Shown here in pieces: positions 7 to 61,544 of a stretch of 64,000 nucleotides of DNA. Source of the stretch: a virus (Duplodnaviria; Caudoviricetes); the IMG/VR virus record IMGVR_UViG_3300029288_000063, positions 64,001 through 128,000 of that record; one strand, written 5' to 3'. Positions within the stretch are counted from its first letter, which is position 1; each line of letters begins with the position of its first letter. Position numbers and translations under genes: made by a program. The notes under the pieces were generated by a model. That model was not told where the DNA came from, did no database searches, and worked only from the letters and a program-made list of their open reading frames with translations.

Positions 7-921
7 TTGGTGCCGTCGAAAGAGCGTGGGAATGTTACACTTGTGAAGAGTGAAAAGGGTAAGTGGGTTCCGCAGGATGCCAATAAGGAATTGGGGCGGG
101 ACTTTGACGCTGAGGCGAAGTTGTGTTGGGATTCCCTTCCTGATATGTTGGGGGAGTATATTGTGATGAAACGTAAAGACTTTGAGAAGATGGCGAGCCG
201 GGTGGCGTCGGATCCTTCCGTGTTGTATATGAGTGTTCCGATGGTTGGTCGTCTGAATCTGAATCAAGAGGGCGGCTCGTATGGCATTTTGGAAATTTCG
301 GAAGACTTCAAGCGGTCTGTGTTTGAAGCCATTCGTGAGCCGGGTATGGAGTACGATGGTGAGTATAAAGCCCACATCTCTGTGTTCACAGAAGACGAGA
401 TGGGTCAGCTTGTTCATCCGATTGAGGAGAGCGGGAAGGCGTTCAGATTCTCGTTGCGCTCGATTGAGACGGTCGAGCCGGAAGGTTGGGACGAGATGGA
501 GCGGGTTTGGTTTGTCACGGTTGAATCACCTGAGTTGGAGGCGTTGCGTTTGAAGTATGGTTTTCCGGCGAAGCTGAATGGTGGGCACGAATTCCACATT
601 ACGGTTGCCGTGAAGCCGAATGTGCGTCCATGTCTTGAAAACAGAATAAGTGCGATGGTATTGCGTGTCGCGTCGTGGTCGGTAGCATCGTGCGATTTGA
701 TTCGTACTGCAAAACCTTTGATTTCCGATATTCGCGTGGACACCAAGAAATGGCAGTTCTCATCGGGGCGTAAAATCCCTAGCGGGCGTGGGGCGTGGGC
801 GTTCGAGATAGGTGGGGAAGAGGTTATGATTCCCGGCACCCTCCAATATGCTGATGCGAAAAAGAAGGCCGTTGAGATGGCGAAGGCGAAGGGTGTCAGG
901 TCTATCGTGTTATTGCCGTGA
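7..921 (+). CDS. 2H phosphoesterase-domain protein (may be 5'-truncated)
   Basis: Two Hx(S/T) motifs: AHISV and FHITV. Confidence 0.7.
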   Translation: MVPSKERGNVTLVKSEKGKWVPQDANKELGRDFDAEAKLCWDSLPDMLGEYIVMKRKDFEKMASRVASDPSVLYMSVPMVGRLNLNQEGGSYGILEISEDFKRSVFEAIREPGMEYDGEYKAHISVFTEDEMGQLVHPIEESGKAFRFSLRSIETVEPEGWDEMERVWFVTVESPELEALRLKYGFPAKLNGGHEFHITVAVKPNVRPCLENRISAMVLRVASWSVASCDLIRTAKPLISDIRVDTKKWQFSSGRKIPSGRGAWAFEIGGEEVMIPGTLQYADAKKKAVEMAKAKGVRSIVLLP

Positions 922-932
922 GGTGAGGTGAT

Positions 933-2615
933 ATGGGTGATGCGCCGAGAGTTGTGATTTTGTCGTTTATTCCCCAGTATGGGGAGTTGACGTTTTTCAT
1001 TGGTGACAAGAAGTATGTTGCCAGTGGTGTTTCACCGTTTCACAAGAAACAGGTTGAATATATGTTGAAGCACGGTGCGAATGGACGTGCCATTAACTAC
1101 CTGAAGAAATTCAACCCGGAAAGGCTTGGTCAGAAGTTGGCGAAAGAATTGGTTGGTGTTGCAAGGTTGTTGTTGGCGTCCAGTTCGGAGAAAGAGGTGG
1201 AGCGGTTGCTTCGTGTTGTTTTACGGGGCACACAATGGGCAGGAAAGGCGCACGCCGTTGGTGGCTATGTCCGGGACGAGTTCATGGGTTTGGACGCGAA
1301 AGACTTGGATATCGTCGTTTCTGTGCCGGGCGGGTCTGAGAAGTTGACGAGGTATTTGTTCGGGTTGTTTCCCGGCTCCATAACCAATCCGCACCAAATG
1401 GGCGCGTCATATCCAATTTGGCAGATAACGTTCAGGGATGATATTGTCTTGGACGGTGAGGTCTATAAGACAAAGGGTGCGGTGATTGAGTTTGCTGATA
1501 CCATGAAGGAGCAATTCCCTGATGATACGTCGCGTCAGCGGAGTGTGCAGCCGGGGACGCTTGAGGAAGATATCGAGCGTCGTGATTTCACGACGAATAT
1601 GCTTTTGAAGGACCTTTCGACCGGTGAGATTGTTGATCTTACCGGTGTGAGTAAGAACGACATCGAGAAGGGTATCCTGCGCGGGCACCCCCGTGTTTCG
1701 CTGGATAAGATTTTCAGTGACGACCCATTGCGGATGATTCGACTTGTTCGGTTTCAGTGCAAGTATGGGTGGTCTATTCCGAAATCGGTTTTGCGGACAG
1801 TTCAGCGTAATGCGAGGCGGATTGAGATTGTTTCGGCCGAGCGCATTATGGGTGAGCTGACAAAGGTTATGAAGATTGGTAAATTGTCACAAGCCATCCG
1901 CCTGATGAAAATCACCGGGCTGTTGCAGTACGTGTTGCCGGAGGTTCAGGCGATGGTCGGGGTCAAGCAGCAGAAGGAGTTTCACGCCGAGGGTGATGTG
2001 TTCCGTCACACGTTGGCTGTTTTGCGTAATGCCCCGGCGACGGTTGAAGGGCAGTTGGCGGCGTTGCTTCATGATGTTGGGAAACCGGCGTCGCAGGAGA
2101 TGGTTGGGGAGGCGATTCACTTCTATGGTCACGAAGAGGTTGGGGCTGAGATGGCCTCGGCAATCCTGTATCGCCTGAAGTTTGACGCGGCGACTATCAA
2201 GAAGGTTGTTTCTGTTGTTCGGAGCCACATGCGTCCGTATCACCTTGTGAAGTCGGATGGAAAGGCAATTCGGAAGTTCATTCGAGACCTTGGTGACGAG
2301 GTTGTTGATGCGGTTTTGGATCAAGCCGAGGCGGACGAAAAGGGCAGTTTGCCTGTTGGGGACGACGTGTCGGTTGTGCGGGAAAAGATTCGCAAGGTGC
2401 GTGAATCGCCTGTGCAGGTGAAGAAGTTGCCGGTTTTGAATGGTCGTGAGATTATGTCCATTCTTGGTATTGGTCAGAACGAAAGGGATAGGCTGCCCGA
2501 GATTGGTGAGGCGGGAAAGTTCCTTTTGGATTTGGCGGATGAATATGCGTCTCACGGTGAAGAGTTGAGTAAGGGAGATGCGGCGAAGGCTTTGAGGAAA
2601 AGGATGTCGTTATGA
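933..2615 (+). CDS. cca: CCA-adding tRNA nucleotidyltransferase with HD domain and short N-terminal extension
   Basis: VGGYVRD, KDLDIV, RRDFT, DDPLRMIR, SAERI, LLHDVGK motifs. Confidence 0.9.
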   Translation: MGDAPRVVILSFIPQYGELTFFIGDKKYVASGVSPFHKKQVEYMLKHGANGRAINYLKKFNPERLGQKLAKELVGVARLLLASSSEKEVERLLRVVLRGTQWAGKAHAVGGYVRDEFMGLDAKDLDIVVSVPGGSEKLTRYLFGLFPGSITNPHQMGASYPIWQITFRDDIVLDGEVYKTKGAVIEFADTMKEQFPDDTSRQRSVQPGTLEEDIERRDFTTNMLLKDLSTGEIVDLTGVSKNDIEKGILRGHPRVSLDKIFSDDPLRMIRLVRFQCKYGWSIPKSVLRTVQRNARRIEIVSAERIMGELTKVMKIGKLSQAIRLMKITGLLQYVLPEVQAMVGVKQQKEFHAEGDVFRHTLAVLRNAPATVEGQLAALLHDVGKPASQEMVGEAIHFYGHEEVGAEMASAILYRLKFDAATIKKVVSVVRSHMRPYHLVKSDGKAIRKFIRDLGDEVVDAVLDQAEADEKGSLPVGDDVSVVREKIRKVRESPVQVKKLPVLNGREIMSILGIGQNERDRLPEIGEAGKFLLDLADEYASHGEELSKGDAAKALRKRMSL

Positions 2616-4507: not shown

Positions 4508-6235
4508 ATGGGTACGATGAAGGGTATTGTTAAGAAGGCTGTTGCGAAGGCGAAGCTCCCCTCGGAGTGTCCGGATGCGATGGTGAACCGTGCAGGCGGT
4601 GTTGCGTTTGACATTTCCGACCCCGCCACGAAGCTTCTGACTATGACCGGTGGCAGCTTTTTCGCGGAACCGCGTTACTACAGTGACTCGGCGTGCCGCC
4701 CGAAGCGTCTGGCGTCCGGCAAGTTCGGCAAGCTGGAAGAGCGTCTGCGTCTGGCGTCCGACAAGGCCGCGAAGTTCGTCAACTGTGAAGAGCTGGATGA
4801 TGTTGCGAAGGAAATCATCGCGACGGCTGTCGATGTGGCGAATGGTTCCAGTCCGCGTGACTTGCTTGCGCTGGCGAACTGGCTGCGCAACGAGGGCAAT
4901 ATCCGTCTGACGCCGCAGGTGTTCCTTGTGCTGGCGTCACGTATGGAAGGTTCGAAGCCGTACGTGAAGAAGTACGTCGAGAAGATTGTGAAGCGTCCGG
5001 ACGAAATCAAGACCGTTCTGATGCTGTACCGTTACTTCTTCGGCATGAAGTGTCTGCCGAACGCGCTGGCGACCGGTCTGTCCGACCGTCTGTCCAAGAT
5101 TGGCGAGTCCGCCTTGATGAAGTACGATGGGAAGGACTTCCCGACGTGGAAGGACGTTTTGTGCTGGCTGCCCCGTGAAAAGGGTTGGCCGCTGTCCGAT
5201 GACCTTTCTGTTTATTTCAAGAAGGGTGTCGTGACGGACAAGACCCCGATTGCTCGTGACCGTTCGCTTCTGGCGAAGTGTGGTGAGTTCGACGCCAAGG
5301 CGCGTGCTCTTGCGAAGTCGTCCAATGTTAACTGGGAGGTTCTGCTCTCGCAGTTCGGCACGAGCGACTCCGGCAAGAAGGCTGTGTGGGAGTTCCTGAT
5401 TGCGGAAGACCTCGTCGGTTACATGGCGATGCTCCGTAACCTGCGGAACCTCGTTCAGGCGGGTGTTGGCAAGGACACGCTGAAGAATGTGTACGACAAG
5501 CTGTCCAATGCCGAAGAGGTCAAGCGGTCGAAGCAGCTTCCGTTCCGGTTCCTCGCCGCGTACAACGAGTTGGAGCATGTCGGTGCGTCCGGAAACATCT
5601 CCAAGATTCTGGAGGCTATCGAGAACGCGACTGAGGTTGCCATCGAGAATTGCCCGAAGTTCCCCGGCAGCACCATCGTCGCCGTGGATGACTCCGGCTC
5701 TATGGGAGCCGGAATCTCGCGGATGTCCTCGATGACCGCCTTCGACGCGGCGTGTTCGCTCGGTGCCATCTGTGCGCGTCGTGGTGAGGATGTCAACCTG
5801 TGGGCGTTTTCGGATGGTGTCCGTGAGGTCAATATCACGAAGCACACGACCATGATGGGCATCGCCAAGAAGGTCGGTAATCACAGTGGTGGCACCAACA
5901 CGTACCTCGTGATTCAGAAGATGATTGACGAGAAGCTGTTCCCAGACCGTCTGTTCATTTTCAGCGACATGCAGGCTTGGAACTCGGGTTGGGGTTCCGC
6001 GAACTGTGCCGACCTGTGGGCGAAGTATCGGCGTATGGGCGCGGCGGCTGGCAAGACGTGGCTGCACAGCGTCAACATCATGGGCTACGGCGACACGCCG
6101 TTCTGTGAGGCTGACAAGCGTTTGAACCTCATCGGTGGCTTTAACGAGGCGGTTCTGTCGATGGCGCTCAAGGCTGAGGGTGTGAATGGGGAGGACAACA
6201 TTCCGCCCATGTCCTACATCCGCGATAATTTCTAG
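4508..6235 (+). CDS. rsr: Ro60/Rsr-like TROVE + vWA RNA-binding protein
   Basis: NRAGGVAF, YMAMLRNLRN, SKQLPFRF, vWA DDSGSM and FSDMQ. Confidence 0.9.
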   Translation: MGTMKGIVKKAVAKAKLPSECPDAMVNRAGGVAFDISDPATKLLTMTGGSFFAEPRYYSDSACRPKRLASGKFGKLEERLRLASDKAAKFVNCEELDDVAKEIIATAVDVANGSSPRDLLALANWLRNEGNIRLTPQVFLVLASRMEGSKPYVKKYVEKIVKRPDEIKTVLMLYRYFFGMKCLPNALATGLSDRLSKIGESALMKYDGKDFPTWKDVLCWLPREKGWPLSDDLSVYFKKGVVTDKTPIARDRSLLAKCGEFDAKARALAKSSNVNWEVLLSQFGTSDSGKKAVWEFLIAEDLVGYMAMLRNLRNLVQAGVGKDTLKNVYDKLSNAEEVKRSKQLPFRFLAAYNELEHVGASGNISKILEAIENATEVAIENCPKFPGSTIVAVDDSGSMGAGISRMSSMTAFDAACSLGAICARRGEDVNLWAFSDGVREVNITKHTTMMGIAKKVGNHSGGTNTYLVIQKMIDEKLFPDRLFIFSDMQAWNSGWGSANCADLWAKYRRMGAAAGKTWLHSVNIMGYGDTPFCEADKRLNLIGGFNEAVLSMALKAEGVNGEDNIPPMSYIRDNF

Positions 6236-55251: not shown

Positions 55252-55473
55252 ATGATTGACAACCACACTGTTGGTTCTGTGAAACGCATTTCGCCGGTGT
55301 TGAATAGGAATGCTATTGTAAAGAGTGGTGGAGTCCTCCAACAGTCGGAGGAGGTTGGTTATGTTGTAAGGGAGAAAATCGGCGTTGGAGTATATAACCC
55401 ATCCGCGTTAAATCTGTTCTTAAAAAAAGAGTCTGAAGGGGCGTTGCCTGTTTATGATGAAGACCCGAATTGA
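55252..55473 (+). CDS. hypothetical protein
   Basis: GAGG SD. Confidence 0.45.
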   Translation: MIDNHTVGSVKRISPVLNRNAIVKSGGVLQQSEEVGYVVREKIGVGVYNPSALNLFLKKESEGALPVYDEDPN

Positions 55474-57641
55474 AATTCTGTTATGAACTTGATATAGGAA
55501 AGCTGAATATGATCAGGAGAGTTCTTTTTTCGATAGTAGTGGTTGCTGCTATTTGCACTGTTGTTTTAGTGACGATATCAATGACTGTCGTCAAAAATGG
55601 ATTCTCTTCTGTAGATGAGGATCGGGTGATTGAATCCTCACACCTTGTTCGTTCTATCGTTCAAAGAGAATTGCTCGGTTTGGCCAGCACTGTTGGGGAT
55701 TGGTCACGGTGGGATGATGCTTGGGAGTATGTTAATCAAGACGGCAAAGATAGGTCTTTTGTCGAACAAAATATTGATCTCGCTTCACTATTACAGTTGC
55801 GCGTGTTTTATGTCATGTTTCTTGGACGGGATGGACATCCTATTTCCGAATTTGTTGTTCGTGACGGGGACATCTATGAGGTTCCGAATTCCGAGCTGTC
55901 CTTGGCGTCTATAGATGGTTTTCAATCGGCATCTGAACGGTGCATGCGCGGCGAGGTTGTGCAGGGTTTGTCTTGGATAGGAGACAAGATGTCCTTGGTG
56001 GCAATGTCGTCTATCTCTAAGTCGGACGGTTCGTGTGTCGGAAACGGTATGTTGGTTTTCTGTCGTGATGCGTCCGGTATGGTTTCGGAAATTAACAAGA
56101 CGTTTGAGTCGTTTTCGATATCCGGTGATTGTTCAAGCGAGATAATGAACGACCTCGTTATCAATACCTCCGATTCGAGCGTGTCTGGGACTTTTCTTGT
56201 TCCCAGTGTTGAGGGAGGGAAAAACTATCTCGCAAGCCTATCTGTTCCGAGCTTTTCCGAGTTGCAGGGCAACCGCATTATCCTTGTTTTCGTTTTTGCG
56301 AGTATAGGGTTTGTTTTCGTTGTTTCGATTGCGCTGTGGAAGGTTGTTGATAGGATGGTATTATCGAGGCTTTCTGTCACAATGTCCGCTGTCAAAGAGA
56401 TTGGTCGTTCTGCCGATGTGACAAAGAAGCTGCCCGGTGGTGAATGTTCTGATGAGTTTGGCGTTTTCATTCACAACTTGAACGATATGCTTGAATCTAT
56501 TCGCGTGTCAGAAGAAAAGACAAAAGAATCAGAAAATGCTTTAAAACGTTCTGAGCGAGTAACACTTCTTGGCAAATTCGCGGAGGGTATTGCGCACGAC
56601 CTGAATAACCTTTTGGCAATTATTAAGGGCTATGCGGACTCGTTGAAGTTTGCCGGTTCACTTTCTGAATCTCTCGTGCTGTGTGACAACATAAGTTCCA
56701 CAGTCGGAGAATGTACGGCTTTGATTGGTAAGATTTTGTCGTTTTCGAGGCGTGGTAATATCAACTTTGTGCCGGTTGATCTGCACCCATTGTTGGGTGA
56801 TATATGTTCGATGTTTCATTACGCCATAGAGAAAAAGAGTGTATGTTTTGAATCGGTTATGGGGGCGGAGAACAGTGTGGTTCATGGGAACAAGTCTGAA
56901 ATTCAAAATGCCATATTGAGTCTGTTGGTTAATGCCCGAGAGGCTGTTTCTGATAATGGTCATATCTTTATCAAATCAAGAAACGTTATCGACCCTGACG
57001 GTTTGTCTTCTGGTGAATATGTGGAGGTGGAGGTGAGTGATGACGGTGTTGGAATTCCTCCGTCGATTATGAAAAATCTTTTTGTTCCATTTCAAACAAC
57101 AAAGGAATATGGAAAGGGTCTTGGACTTTCTTTTGTTCATGGGACGGCGGAAAGACACAAAGGAAGGGTAAGTGTTTCCAGTATTCCCGGTAAAACATCT
57201 GTGCTGCTCTTGATTCCGTGCTCTGAAAAAAAGGCTAGTGTTCCGGAGAAAAACAGCGTTATGAGACATAAGACTCCGTGTGTTGTGCATGTCGAAGATG
57301 AGGCGGCCATTCGTGAAATCGTTAAGTTGCAGCTTGAGGATGATGGGTTTTGTGTGAAATCTTTTGCGCATGGTGATGGTGCGATTAGTTATGTTCGTGA
57401 ACACAAGCAAGATGTTGACTTTGCGATTCTCGACTTCGCGGTTCCTCCTGTGGATGGTGTTTACATCTTTCATGAGATGAGAAAGATTATACCAACTCTT
57501 CCAGTTGCGTTTATGACTGGTTTTTGTGACGCTAGGGCTGAAGACTTGCGTGCCGAGGGGGCGGTCGGTGTTTTCGAGAAACCAATCAATTTCAAGTCAG
57601 TTCTTAGTCTTCTGAACGATATACTTGGAAAGCGTGGGTAG
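55470..57641 (+). CDS. membrane hybrid histidine kinase (CHASE4-HAMP-HisKA-HATPase-REC)
   Basis: DWSRWDD, two TMs, DEFG, AHDLNN, DDGVG, GLGL, VEDE. Confidence 0.9.
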   Translation: MKFCYELDIGKLNMIRRVLFSIVVVAAICTVVLVTISMTVVKNGFSSVDEDRVIESSHLVRSIVQRELLGLASTVGDWSRWDDAWEYVNQDGKDRSFVEQNIDLASLLQLRVFYVMFLGRDGHPISEFVVRDGDIYEVPNSELSLASIDGFQSASERCMRGEVVQGLSWIGDKMSLVAMSSISKSDGSCVGNGMLVFCRDASGMVSEINKTFESFSISGDCSSEIMNDLVINTSDSSVSGTFLVPSVEGGKNYLASLSVPSFSELQGNRIILVFVFASIGFVFVVSIALWKVVDRMVLSRLSVTMSAVKEIGRSADVTKKLPGGECSDEFGVFIHNLNDMLESIRVSEEKTKESENALKRSERVTLLGKFAEGIAHDLNNLLAIIKGYADSLKFAGSLSESLVLCDNISSTVGECTALIGKILSFSRRGNINFVPVDLHPLLGDICSMFHYAIEKKSVCFESVMGAENSVVHGNKSEIQNAILSLLVNAREAVSDNGHIFIKSRNVIDPDGLSSGEYVEVEVSDDGVGIPPSIMKNLFVPFQTTKEYGKGLGLSFVHGTAERHKGRVSVSSIPGKTSVLLLIPCSEKKASVPEKNSVMRHKTPCVVHVEDEAAIREIVKLQLEDDGFCVKSFAHGDGAISYVREHKQDVDFAILDFAVPPVDGVYIFHEMRKIIPTLPVAFMTGFCDARAEDLRAEGAVGVFEKPINFKSVLSLLNDILGKRG

Positions 57642-57706
57642 CTCAATGGCAGAGCGAGGGCTTCTAAAGCCCTGCGTTATGGGTTCGAGTCCCATCCTAC
57701 GCACCA
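57632..57706 (+). tRNA. amber suppressor tRNA (CTA)
   Basis: AGGGC-TT-CTA-AA-GCCCT, canonical D and T arms, CCA. Confidence 0.85.
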
Positions 57707-59936: not shown

Positions 59937-59974
59937 TGCGGGCATAGTTCCTGCAAGTGGTCTTTGACAATCGA
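59937..59974 (+). promoter_or_regulatory. boxB/boxA-like antitermination site
   Basis: TGCGGG-CATAGTT-CCTGCA then GGTCTTTGACAATCGA. Confidence 0.65.
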
Positions 59975-59996
59975 GTGGCCAAGAAAAGAATTATCC

Positions 59997-60084: not shown

Positions 60085-60160
<76 letters not shown>

Positions 60161-60190
60161 AATTCAATCCGGGCGTGTGCCCGGTGGAAT

Positions 60191-60267
60191 AGGCGTTTAG
60201 CTCAGGAGGCTAGAGCGTGTGCGTCACAAGCACGAGGTCGCTGGTTCGAATCCAGCATCGCCTACCA
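60191..60267 (+). tRNA. tRNA-Val(CAC)
   Basis: Cloverleaf, CCA. Confidence 0.88.
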
Positions 60268-60278
60268 TAGTTTTTTTT

Positions 60279-60433
60279 GCAGCACTCTTCAGTATGGAGT
60301 TACTTCCTTTCAAACCGAAAATGTGGGTTCGATTCCCACACCTGATGCCGCAACACACGACGGTTCGCCGTCCAGTCGGGTTCGTCTAATGGTAGGACTC
60401 GGGCGCAAGTCTCCATGCGTTCTTTGGTGCTGT
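60279..60433 (+). ncRNA. Y RNA-like ncRNA with permuted Glu-like tRNA domain
   Basis: Shared module; CTTTCAA-ACCGA, T arm, then GTCTAATGGTAGGAC D arm. Confidence 0.8.
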
Positions 60434-60441
60434 TTTTTCAT

Positions 60442-60516
60442 GTCCCGCTCGTCTAGCGGCTAGGACGACAGCTTTTCAAGCTGTAAACCGGAGTTCGATT
60501 CTCCGGCGGGATGCCA
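60442..60516 (+). tRNA. tRNA-Glu(TTC)
   Basis: Cloverleaf, CCA. Confidence 0.92.
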
Positions 60517-60523
60517 AATTCAT

Positions 60524-60610
60524 GCGGGTATGCTGGAATGGCAGACAGGTTGCGTTGAGAGCGCAATGGACGAATTGTCCGTGAGGGTTCAAGTCCCTCT
60601 ATCCGCACCA
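60524..60610 (+). tRNA. tRNA-Leu(GAG)
   Basis: Long variable arm, CCA. Confidence 0.92.
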
Positions 60611-60615
60611 AATTT

Positions 60616-60814
60616 ACCAGTCGTCTGAGGAAGCTCGGGACTGCACCGCGAAAACGGAGGAGGATTGTATAATCTGATTGGACTCCGGAGGCAGCAACCC
60701 CAAATAGGCCCGGAGCGGGAGCGCGGCGTGTTGAAGGGCGGGTTGGGGGCTTAGACCAATGCACGGTTGAAAAACAGAATCCCGGCTACGTAGAACTGTG
60801 CGCGGTCGACTGGT
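60616..60814 (+). ncRNA. rnpB: RNase P RNA, minimal and circularly permuted
   Basis: GAGGAAGCTCGGGA, GCAGCAACCCCAAATAGG, GGGT, TAGACCAATG, ACAGAATCCCGGCTA conserved blocks. Confidence 0.85.
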
Positions 60815-60820
60815 TATTAT

Positions 60821-60897
60821 GTCTCGGTAGGCGAATGGTTGAAGCCGTCACCCCTTCAAGGTGAAAATTACGGGTTCGAATCCCGTCCGAGATACCA
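60821..60897 (+). tRNA. tRNA-Glu(TTC), C33 variant
   Basis: TCACC-CC-TTC-AA-GGTGA, CCA. Confidence 0.8.
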
Positions 60898-60985
60898 CAA
60901 GAAAAGGGAAAGCCCCCCTATGGGAACCATGAAGGCCAAATGGGTTCTCGCAGGCTTGACAACCGGAGAGTACGGTGCCAATGAT

Positions 60986-61061
60986 GTCCCGCTCGTCTAG
61001 TGGTCTAGGATGGCAGATTCTCAGTCTGCGGACAGGGGTTCGAATCCCCTGCGGGATACCA
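60986..61061 (+). tRNA. tRNA-Glu(CTC)
   Basis: Cloverleaf, CCA. Confidence 0.92.
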
Positions 61062-61125
61062 AGATTTCCCTTCGGGTTGACTGGAGGTTGTTCGTACCGC
61101 TGTCGAGGTATGGCGGCGGTAGTTT

Positions 61126-61201
61126 GGAAGGTTAGCCTACGTGGTCACGGCGTCTGCCTGAAGAGCAGAAGAAGTCGGTTCGATTCCGACACCTTCCACC
61201 A
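61126..61201 (+). tRNA. tRNA-Phe(GAA)
   Basis: Cloverleaf, CCA. Confidence 0.85.
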
Positions 61202-61204
61202 TAA

Positions 61205-61290
61205 GCGGGTGTGCTGAAATGGCATACAGGTCGCGCTCAGAACGCGATGCCCGTAAGGGCGTGTGGGTTCGACTCCCTCCATCCGCACCA
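61205..61290 (+). tRNA. tRNA-Leu(CAG)
   Basis: Long variable arm, CCA. Confidence 0.92.
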
Positions 61291-61298
61291 AAAACAAT

Positions 61299-61387
61299 GC
61301 GAGTGTGCTGGAACTGGCATACAGGTCTGTCTCAAAAGCAGATGGGTGAAAAATCCCGTGTGGGTTCGACTCCCACCGCTCGCACCA
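61299..61387 (+). tRNA. tRNA-Leu(CAA)
   Basis: Long variable arm, CCA. Confidence 0.92.
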
Positions 61388-61395
61388 AATATATG

Positions 61396-61544
61396 ATGAC
61401 GCGCTTCGGTAGGGAGATACTTCCATAAGGCTGGTGTCCCTCGGGACGTGTGGGTTCGAGTCCCACAGACTTAACGAAAGTTGGGCGATGGCGAAATGGC
61501 AGACGCACCGGAAAAAAGAAACTCCTTGCGACTTTTGGCGTCAT
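61396..61544 (+). ncRNA. Y RNA-like ncRNA with permuted Leu-like (class II) tRNA domain
   Basis: Shared module; variable arm and T arm precede GGCGAAATGGCAGACGC. Confidence 0.8.

What the first reader, a model, noticed from the sequence alone, without database searches (positions are those of the whole stretch)
60616..60814. Circularly permuted RNase P RNA with no P1 and a reduced specificity domain
Seen: the catalytic-domain landmarks are present in only about 200 nt: P4 (GCTCGGGA/TCCCGGC), P5 (CTGC/GCAG), P6 (CCGCG/CGCGG), P7 (CGGAG/CTCCG), P15-16 with GGU, and TAGACCAAT. The P2 5' strand (AACTGTGC, pairing with GCACGGTT), J2/3 (GCG) and the P3 5' strand (GTCGACTGG) come after the P4 3' strand, joined by about 5 nt (CGTAG) where P1 should be. 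The gene's ends therefore lie in P3. The S-domain is one short hairpin and P18 is absent. Known: canonical order is P1-P2-P3-P4, and S-domain-reduced forms exist in some archaea. I do not know of a natural permuted form but cannot verify that.
Basis: partly seen in the sequence, partly recalled or inferred. Interest (0 to 1): 0.88.

Follow-up and report, generated by a model that had tools for sequence, protein, structure and literature searches.

The report
Rewired phage RNase P lacking P1
A large phage carries, between two tRNA genes, a 199-base gene for a miniature RNase P RNA (the RNA enzyme that trims new tRNAs) whose parts are written in a rotated order and whose normally universal end helix is missing, a natural arrangement I found in six other sequences but in no paper.

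Summary
Confirmed. 60616-60814 is an RNase P RNA gene in a 253-kb phage, wedged between tRNA-Leu and tRNA-Glu. Catalytic-domain helices P2-P7 and P15-P17 and the CR-I, CR-IV and CR-V landmarks are present; P1, P18 and most of the S-domain are not. The P2 and P3 5' strands follow the P4 3' strand through a 6-nt linker, so the ends lie in L3. That P2+P3 partner is the best in the whole genome (44 against 31). Four more L3-opened genes show compensatory changes (15 of 26 pairs among four aligned), and two further genes carry the same P1-less junction but are opened at the P18 site. About 160 canonical-order relatives form a phage mini-RNase-P family; this scan noted that family before on other DNA, but its look-ups showed no permuted member elsewhere. 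Eight literature searches found no natural permuted or phage RNase P RNA. Most likely it is cut out of the tRNA operon, clamped by a lengthened P3, and cleaves pre-tRNAs with host RnpA. Expression and catalysis are inferred, not shown. Small corrections: linker 6 nt, J2/3 one G, P4 8 bp.

The parts
59964..59991 (+). sigma-70-like promoter pattern ahead of the tRNA run (Tyr-Ala-Val-Y-like RNA-Glu-Leu-RPR-Glu)
   Evidence: pattern match only, 10 of 12; 2 found against 1.4 expected in shuffles, so weak
60524..60610 (+). tRNA-Leu(GAG) with encoded CCA; cleavage of its 3' trailer would make the RPR 5' end
   Evidence: processing inferred
60616..60627 (+). P3 3' strand, here the 5' end of the gene
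   Evidence: covariation
60628..60640 (+). J3/4 and P4 5' strand (CR-I); bulged U69 equivalent at 60635
60641..60650 (+). P5 5' strand (60641-44) and P6 5' strand (60646-50)
60655..60687 (+). S-domain stub: P7 (60655-59 with 60683-87), internal loop and short hairpin (60662-75); no P8-P14, no CR-II/III
60691..60697 (+). P5 3' strand and J5/15 (A248, A249 equivalents)
60698..60748 (+). P15-L15-P16-P17 arm; P6 3' strand at 60722-26; GGU motif for tRNA 3'-RCCA within 60740-44
60749..60760 (+). J15/2 with CR-IV; no P18
60761..60768 (+). P2 3' strand
60769..60787 (+). J2/4 (CR-V, no P19) and P4 3' strand (60780-87)
60788..60793 (+). 6-nt linker in place of P1
   Evidence: hexamer AC(G/T)(T/C)AG in 7 of 7 P1-less genes and 1 of 161 canonical ones
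60794..60802 (+). P2 5' strand (60794-801) and J2/3 G (60802)
60803..60814 (+). P3 5' strand, here the 3' end of the gene
60821..60897 (+). tRNA-Glu(UUC); RNase P cleavage at its 5' end would make the RPR 3' end
   Evidence: processing inferred

Best explanation
A functional, circularly permuted, P1-less member of a phage family of miniature type-A-like RNase P RNAs. SHOWN: identity, wiring and conservation of the fold. INFERRED: (1) it is transcribed inside the tRNA operon and released by tRNA processing on both sides, leaving about 5 and 6 nt overhangs; (2) a lengthened P3 clamps the ends, the job P1 normally does, and P1 is dispensable because its tertiary partner L9 went with the S-domain; (3) it folds to the ordinary catalytic domain, binds host RnpA, holds pre-tRNA through the acceptor stem and the 3'-RCCA/GGU pairing, and cuts 5' leaders by the two-metal P4 mechanism; (4) its use is extra or host-independent maturation capacity for the phage's 57 tRNAs and tmRNA. 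Identity as a permuted RNase P RNA about 0.95; this linear trans-acting mechanism about 0.65.
For: All catalytic-domain helices present in five L3-opened genes with different sequences; 99% of cells paired and 15 of 26 pairs with two-sided change among four of them, against 23-46% paired for slid controls. P3 has 11, 13, 13-14, 9 and 6 pairs in the L3-opened genes against a median of 5 in 161 canonical ones. P1 is already 6 bp or shorter in 14 of 161 canonical relatives and L3 tolerates inserts up to a 185-codon ORF. 55 of 58 predicted tRNA/tmRNA genes encode CCA and 36 of 58 have U at -1 by my count. The phage has a tmRNA, so the host is bacterial; no RnpA found in a genome 75% complete. Literature: the E. 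coli C-domain without S-domain and P18 still cleaves, about 100-fold slower, and C5 protein stimulates it (PMC5839562); the L9-P1 contact is minor (PMC8457005); the metal ligands are backbone phosphates (PMC13254310); end-joined circular M1 RNA is reported active (bioRxiv 10.1101/2025.06.30.662392).
Against: No expression or activity data. No family member was found as the only RNase P RNA of a complete cell: two bacterial genomes that carry it also have a full-length rnpB, three MAGs were inconclusive. C-domain-only RNAs are weak enzymes. The CCA and U(-1) features fit host RNase P equally well. Whether the 6-nt linker lets P4 and P2 pack correctly was not modelled.
Confidence: 0.65

Rival explanations
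1. Same catalytic RNA, but the mature form is a covalent circle: the 5'-phosphate and 3'-OH ends held together by P3 are ligated, as for the permuted SRP RNA of Thermoproteus.
For: The phage encodes an Rnl2-type RNA ligase (PF09414) and RtcB; two different opening points share one sealed P1 junction; circular RNase P RNA isoforms are reported; permuted SRP genes give circles (PMC10085705).
Against: P3 alone suffices to clamp the ends; no bulge-helix-bulge or other splice signal seen; such ligases are common in tRNA-rich phages; the predicted ends do not suit RtcB chemistry (own knowledge).
Confidence: 0.15
2. Non-catalytic or weakly catalytic decoy: it binds RnpA or tRNA 3' ends, or lures a host nuclease, rather than processing tRNA.
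For: S-domain, P1 and P18 are all gone; the only described viral RNase P-like RNA (camelpox) was inactive in vitro (PMC3001073); the same array holds tRNA-mimic Y-like RNAs.
Against: P4 with its bulged U, A248/A249, CR-IV, CR-V, GGU and the P6 pseudoknot are all kept with compensatory change, more than a protein sponge should need. My search patterns required CR-I and CR-V, so their conservation is partly built in.
Confidence: 0.12
3. A cis-acting ribozyme that cuts only the leader of the tRNA directly downstream in the same transcript.
For: The window gene ends 6 nt and L019 about 3 nt before a tRNA.
Against: L208 and L209 have no tRNA directly downstream and L426 has about 90 nt; the tether sits at the far end of a 12-bp P3, away from the active site (inference).
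Confidence: 0.05
4. Assembly artefact, chance pairing or a decayed rearranged pseudogene.
For: Below Rfam gathering scores; folding z-score not significant.
Against: A Logan contig (probably of the source sample) covers 60102-61400 with no difference, and a 151-nt record from a second study spans the permuted junction with no difference; six other P1-less genes with covarying P2 and P3.
Confidence: 0.03

Closest known systems
Bacterial type A RNase P RNA (Rfam RF00010; E. coli M1 RNA)
   Same: P2-P7, P15-P17 with the P6 pseudoknot, 8-bp P4 with bulged U, G19, A248/A249, GGU in L15, CR-IV, CR-V. Canonical-order relatives score up to 106.8 bits against RF00010.
   Different: No P1, ends in L3, no P8-P14, no P18 or P19, 199 nt, phage-encoded.
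Type T archaeal RNase P RNA (Pyrobaculum, Caldivirga; PMC13462272)
   Same: S-domain reduced to essentially one stem off P7; P15-17/P6 kept.
   Different: Type T keeps P1 and the canonical order, is cellular and uses archaeal Rpp proteins; here the host is bacterial and no T-loop was identified in the stub.
Naturally permuted RNAs: hammerhead, twister, 5S rRNA, group II introns, two-piece tmRNA, permuted tRNA and SRP genes (list in PMC10085705)
   Same: Gene-level circular permutation that keeps the fold; several opening points, as for hammerhead and twister.
   Different: RNase P is not on that 2023 list; here the helix that held the old ends is deleted outright rather than capped by a loop.
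Engineered circularly permuted and C-domain-only RNase P RNAs (PMC13022451, PMC5839562); circular M1 isoform (bioRxiv 2025.06.30.662392)
   Same: Show that removing the S-domain and P18, or joining the native ends, is compatible with activity in the bacterial RNA.
   Different: Those keep P1 and are artificial or post-transcriptional; the permuted human H1 conjugates in PMC13022451 did not cleave.
Phage mini RNase P RNA family
   Same: Same core, same S-domain stub, same place in tRNA arrays; HMM score 76 bits.
   Different: About 160 members have P1 and canonical order; 7 distinct genes lack P1.

Membership tests
RNase P RNA (clan CL00002) | P4 pseudoknot helix with bulged U between CR-I and CR-V | tested here: met
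   8 of 8 pairs, bulge at 60635
RNase P RNA (clan CL00002) | P2, P3, P5, P7 core with CR-IV | tested here: met
RNase P RNA (clan CL00002) | P1 helix closing the 5' and 3' ends; order P1-P2-P3-P4 | tested here: not met
   replaced by a 6-nt linker; no upstream P2 partner. This is the variant feature: homology holds, canonical topology does not
RNase P RNA (clan CL00002) | Mg2+-dependent cleavage of pre-tRNA 5' leaders | not testable with these tools
   needs an assay
Bacterial type A (RF00010) | P15-P16-P17 with P6 and the GGU motif | tested here: met
Bacterial type A (RF00010) | S-domain P8-P14 with CR-II/III, and P18 | tested here: not met
   33-nt stub; 4 nt between P15 and CR-IV
Bacterial type A (RF00010) | Rfam gathering score | tested here: not met
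   no RNase P hit at gathering; best clan hit RF00373 31.7 bits against 84
Bacterial type A (RF00010) | Holoenzyme with RnpA | not testable with these tools
   no PF00825 hit in the 75%-complete phage genome; use of the host protein is inferred
Type T archaeal RNase P RNA | S-domain reduced to one stem | tested here: met
   PMC13462272
Type T archaeal RNase P RNA | Archaeal (Thermoproteaceae) cellular gene working with Rpp proteins, P1 present | tested here: not met
   virus record with tmRNA; no RNaseP-T hit listed, where one overlapping clan hit was hidden
Phage mini RNase P RNA family | Short core with P7 stub, inside a tRNA array | tested here: met

The most novel reading that the evidence does not exclude
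The first natural circularly permuted RNase P ribozymes: active enzymes that have lost the otherwise universal P1 helix, exist in at least two opening registers (L3 and the P18 site) sharing one sealed junction, arose more than once or by exchange of a P1-less module between phage lineages, and may mature into covalent circles.
Probability: 0.65. Interest if true: 0.92.

Novelty: new variant of a known kind. Interest (0 to 1): 0.85.

Why it matters
P1 and the P1-P2-P3-P4 order are treated as universal in RNase P and MRP RNAs (own knowledge). A natural gene without P1, in two permutation registers, would show which parts of this ancient ribozyme are really needed, give a natural 199-nt minimal enzyme for structure and engineering, and explain why covariance-model searches miss such genes. 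It also bears on whether phages bring their own tRNA 5'-maturation enzyme. The test is cheap: one in vitro transcript and a pre-tRNA.

Tried and rejected
Canonical reading with a degenerate upstream P1/P2: rejected. Folding z-score: uninformative. Re-permutation with an HMM: gain of 1-4 bits only; Infernal could not be run on a re-permuted sequence with these tools. BLAST of the window against deposited phages: nothing; L309 likewise. Sequencing runs: no RNA holder listed, which says nothing on expression. Pattern scans returned mostly chance hits, filtered by P4 and P2 pairing; L207, L219 and L266, flagged as permuted by script, were rejected (P4 unpaired, or canonical P1 present). No permuted form among 95 genome hits, but that pattern only sees short cores. 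One origin or several: the 170-row quick tree could not reject one clade (p 0.66); a core-only tree of 40 hand-picked rows and 103 columns rejected it (p 0.025 for all seven, 0.009 for the five L3-opened); short, paired columns and chosen taxa make this weak. MAFFT misregistered P6, P7, P15 and P16 (where my P6 coordinates were also off by one), so those were read by anchors and left out of the pair count. No 2'-5' RNA ligase; the T4 Rnl1 search had no working control. Lai et al. 2010 (type T) was not held. Selection bias: L208, L209 and L426 were found with patterns that contain the linker; the window, L019, L309 and L328 were found without it.

Full report
Setting. The window is part of a 253,102-base virus record, about 75% complete, with 57 predicted tRNAs and a tmRNA, so a large phage of a bacterium. 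The element fills the 210-nt gap between tRNA-Leu (ends 60610 with CCA) and tRNA-Glu (starts 60821). Rfam finds only tRNAs at gathering level but matches RNaseP_arch here at 31.7 bits, E 1.2e-7.

Observation. Reading from 60616: P3 3' strand, AGGA, P4 5' strand with the bulged U, P5, P6, a P7 stub with a short hairpin, P5', CAA, the P15-16-17 arm with the P6 partner and GGU, CR-IV, P2 3' strand, J2/4, P4 3' strand, a 6-nt linker, P2 5' strand, one G, P3 5' strand. P4 pairs 8 of 8; four of these pairs differ on both sides from the E. coli helix as I recall it (own knowledge). The strand that completes P2 and P3 is the best such partner in the whole genome, 44 against 31, and nothing upstream can do it. 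A contig of the probable source run matches 60102-61400 exactly, and one short record from a second study spans the junction exactly.

The family. A pattern for CR-I, CR-IV and CR-V at short spacing gave 67, 19 and more than 120 viral loci. About 160 distinct ones have paired P4 and the canonical order P1-P2-P3; most lie in tRNA arrays. Of 20 loci tested, one passes Rfam's gathering score. A canonical-order copy sits unannotated in cultured phage DLP_6 and others lie in tRNA arrays of bacterial genomes, next to a full-length rnpB in the two cases that could be settled. Earlier notes of this scan describe the same short family on other DNA; I found it by my own scan before reading them.

The permuted members. 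Four further distinct genes are wired like the window: L019, L208 (identical in L210 and L212), L209 and L426. Among the window, L208, L209 and L426, 99% of cells in P2, P3, P4 and P5 pair and 15 of 26 pairs change on both sides, including the first P3 pair; slid controls pair 23-46% (four rows only, and the structure came from one of them). A covariance model with this wiring gives L019, which it had not seen, 92 bits, against 32-71 for L019's nearest canonical relatives. Two more genes, L309 and L328, carry the same P1-less junction but have a closed P3 and are opened at the P18 site, where a perfect 11- or 9-bp helix joins their ends. All seven share a linker AC(G/T)(T/C)AG (1 of 161 canonical genes has it at that place) and a longer J2/4 (0 of 161). 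Four of the seven were found without the linker in the pattern.

How it probably works. Shown: fold and wiring. Inferred: the RNA is cut out of the tRNA operon by the processing of its neighbours; P3, longer than the family median of 5 bp in four of five L3-opened genes, holds the ends. P1 has two jobs in type A RNAs, closing the ends and accepting the L9 tetraloop; the second is minor (PMC8457005) and void once P9 is gone, and P1 is already 6 bp or shorter in 14 of 161 canonical relatives. L3 accepts large inserts in this family, so it is a free place for ends. The catalytic domain without S-domain and P18 is a slow but accurate enzyme that RnpA stimulates (PMC5839562), and the metal ligands are backbone phosphates (PMC13254310), so G and C at positions 67-68, found in 26 of 161 relatives, need not harm it. 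With no elbow reader, recognition would rest on the acceptor stem and the CCA-GGU pairing; 55 of 58 genes encode CCA. No RnpA gene was found, so the host protein is the likely partner. I put this at 0.65; a ligated circle at 0.15 (the phage has RtcB and an Rnl2-type ligase); a decoy at 0.12; cis-only action at 0.05; artefact at 0.03.

Origin. A head-to-tail duplication, deletion of the inner P1 strands and loss of the outer parts can give either register (inference; the model is discussed for ribozymes in PMC10085705). The cores of the seven genes resemble different canonical subtypes, L309 and L328 even keeping CR-II and CR-III like canonical L026. A core-only tree rejects one clade weakly, a whole-gene quick tree does not. 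So either repeated origin with a strongly constrained junction, or exchange of the P1-less module between lineages; not settled.

Comparison with what is known. It works like the catalytic domain of bacterial type A RNase P RNA and parallels archaeal type T in S-domain loss (PMC13462272), but fails the type A tests for P1, S-domain and P18 and is not type T. A 2023 list of natural RNA permutations does not include RNase P (PMC10085705). Searches for permuted or phage RNase P RNA found only engineered constructs, post-transcriptional circles and the inactive camelpox RNA. The library lacks most subscription journals, so prior description is not excluded.

Verdict. A real, conserved, apparently undescribed variant: a gene-level circular permutation of a miniature phage RNase P RNA with complete loss of P1, in two registers. 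Activity is the open question. Interest 0.85.

Noticed in passing
L309 2499-2733 (+) and L328 about 790-1075 (-): Second permutation register: same P1-less junction, closed P3, ends in a perfect helix at the P18 site; both keep CR-II/III and follow a tRNA gene directly.
   Followed up: yes
L015 10982-11800 (-): Canonical-order mini RNase P RNA with a 185-codon ORF (HNH-like by eye, not scanned) inserted in L3, flanked by an extended P3; L044 and L202 have inserts of about 140 nt there.
   Followed up: partly
window 60279-60433: tRNA-mimic with the T arm before the D arm and a closing stem, like a YrlA Y RNA; the phage has a Ro60/TROVE gene at window 4508-6235. RF02553 did not list this element at E 0.01.
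   Followed up: partly
L221, L225, L229, L230, L234, L241, L267-L269, L282, L295: Canonical-order mini RNase P RNAs in bacterial assemblies (many Gemmataceae, Achromobacter anxifer), often beside tRNA arrays; a second copy where a full rnpB was found, inconclusive in three MAGs.
   Followed up: partly
L215-L303 (DPANN genomes): Many Woesearchaeota, Pacearchaeota and Iainarchaeota have short canonical-order RNase P RNAs that keep CR-II but lack the P16-P17 arm.
   Followed up: no
L427 1465-1705 (KU682439.2): Unannotated canonical-order family member in cultured Stenotrophomonas phage DLP_6; also a hit in the 735-kb phage LR756501.
   Followed up: partly
window 57632-57706: tRNA with a CUA (amber-reading) anticodon; the genetic code of the phage was not examined.
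   Followed up: no
window 55470-57641: 723-codon ORF that reads like a membrane sensor histidine kinase with a receiver domain, inside the tRNA array; not scanned.
   Followed up: no
window 42455-63179: About a dozen tRNAs start with U, A or C rather than G (both Gln, Asn, Ile, Arg, Trp, Asp, Phe, Val); possible poor substrates for the host enzyme, untested.
   Followed up: no
G000 C1 22691-23920 and 135903-136532: RtcB and Rnl2-type RNA ligase genes.
   Followed up: partly
L209 456-616 (-): Its P4 5' strand has one extra base, either a second bulge or a sequence error.
   Followed up: no
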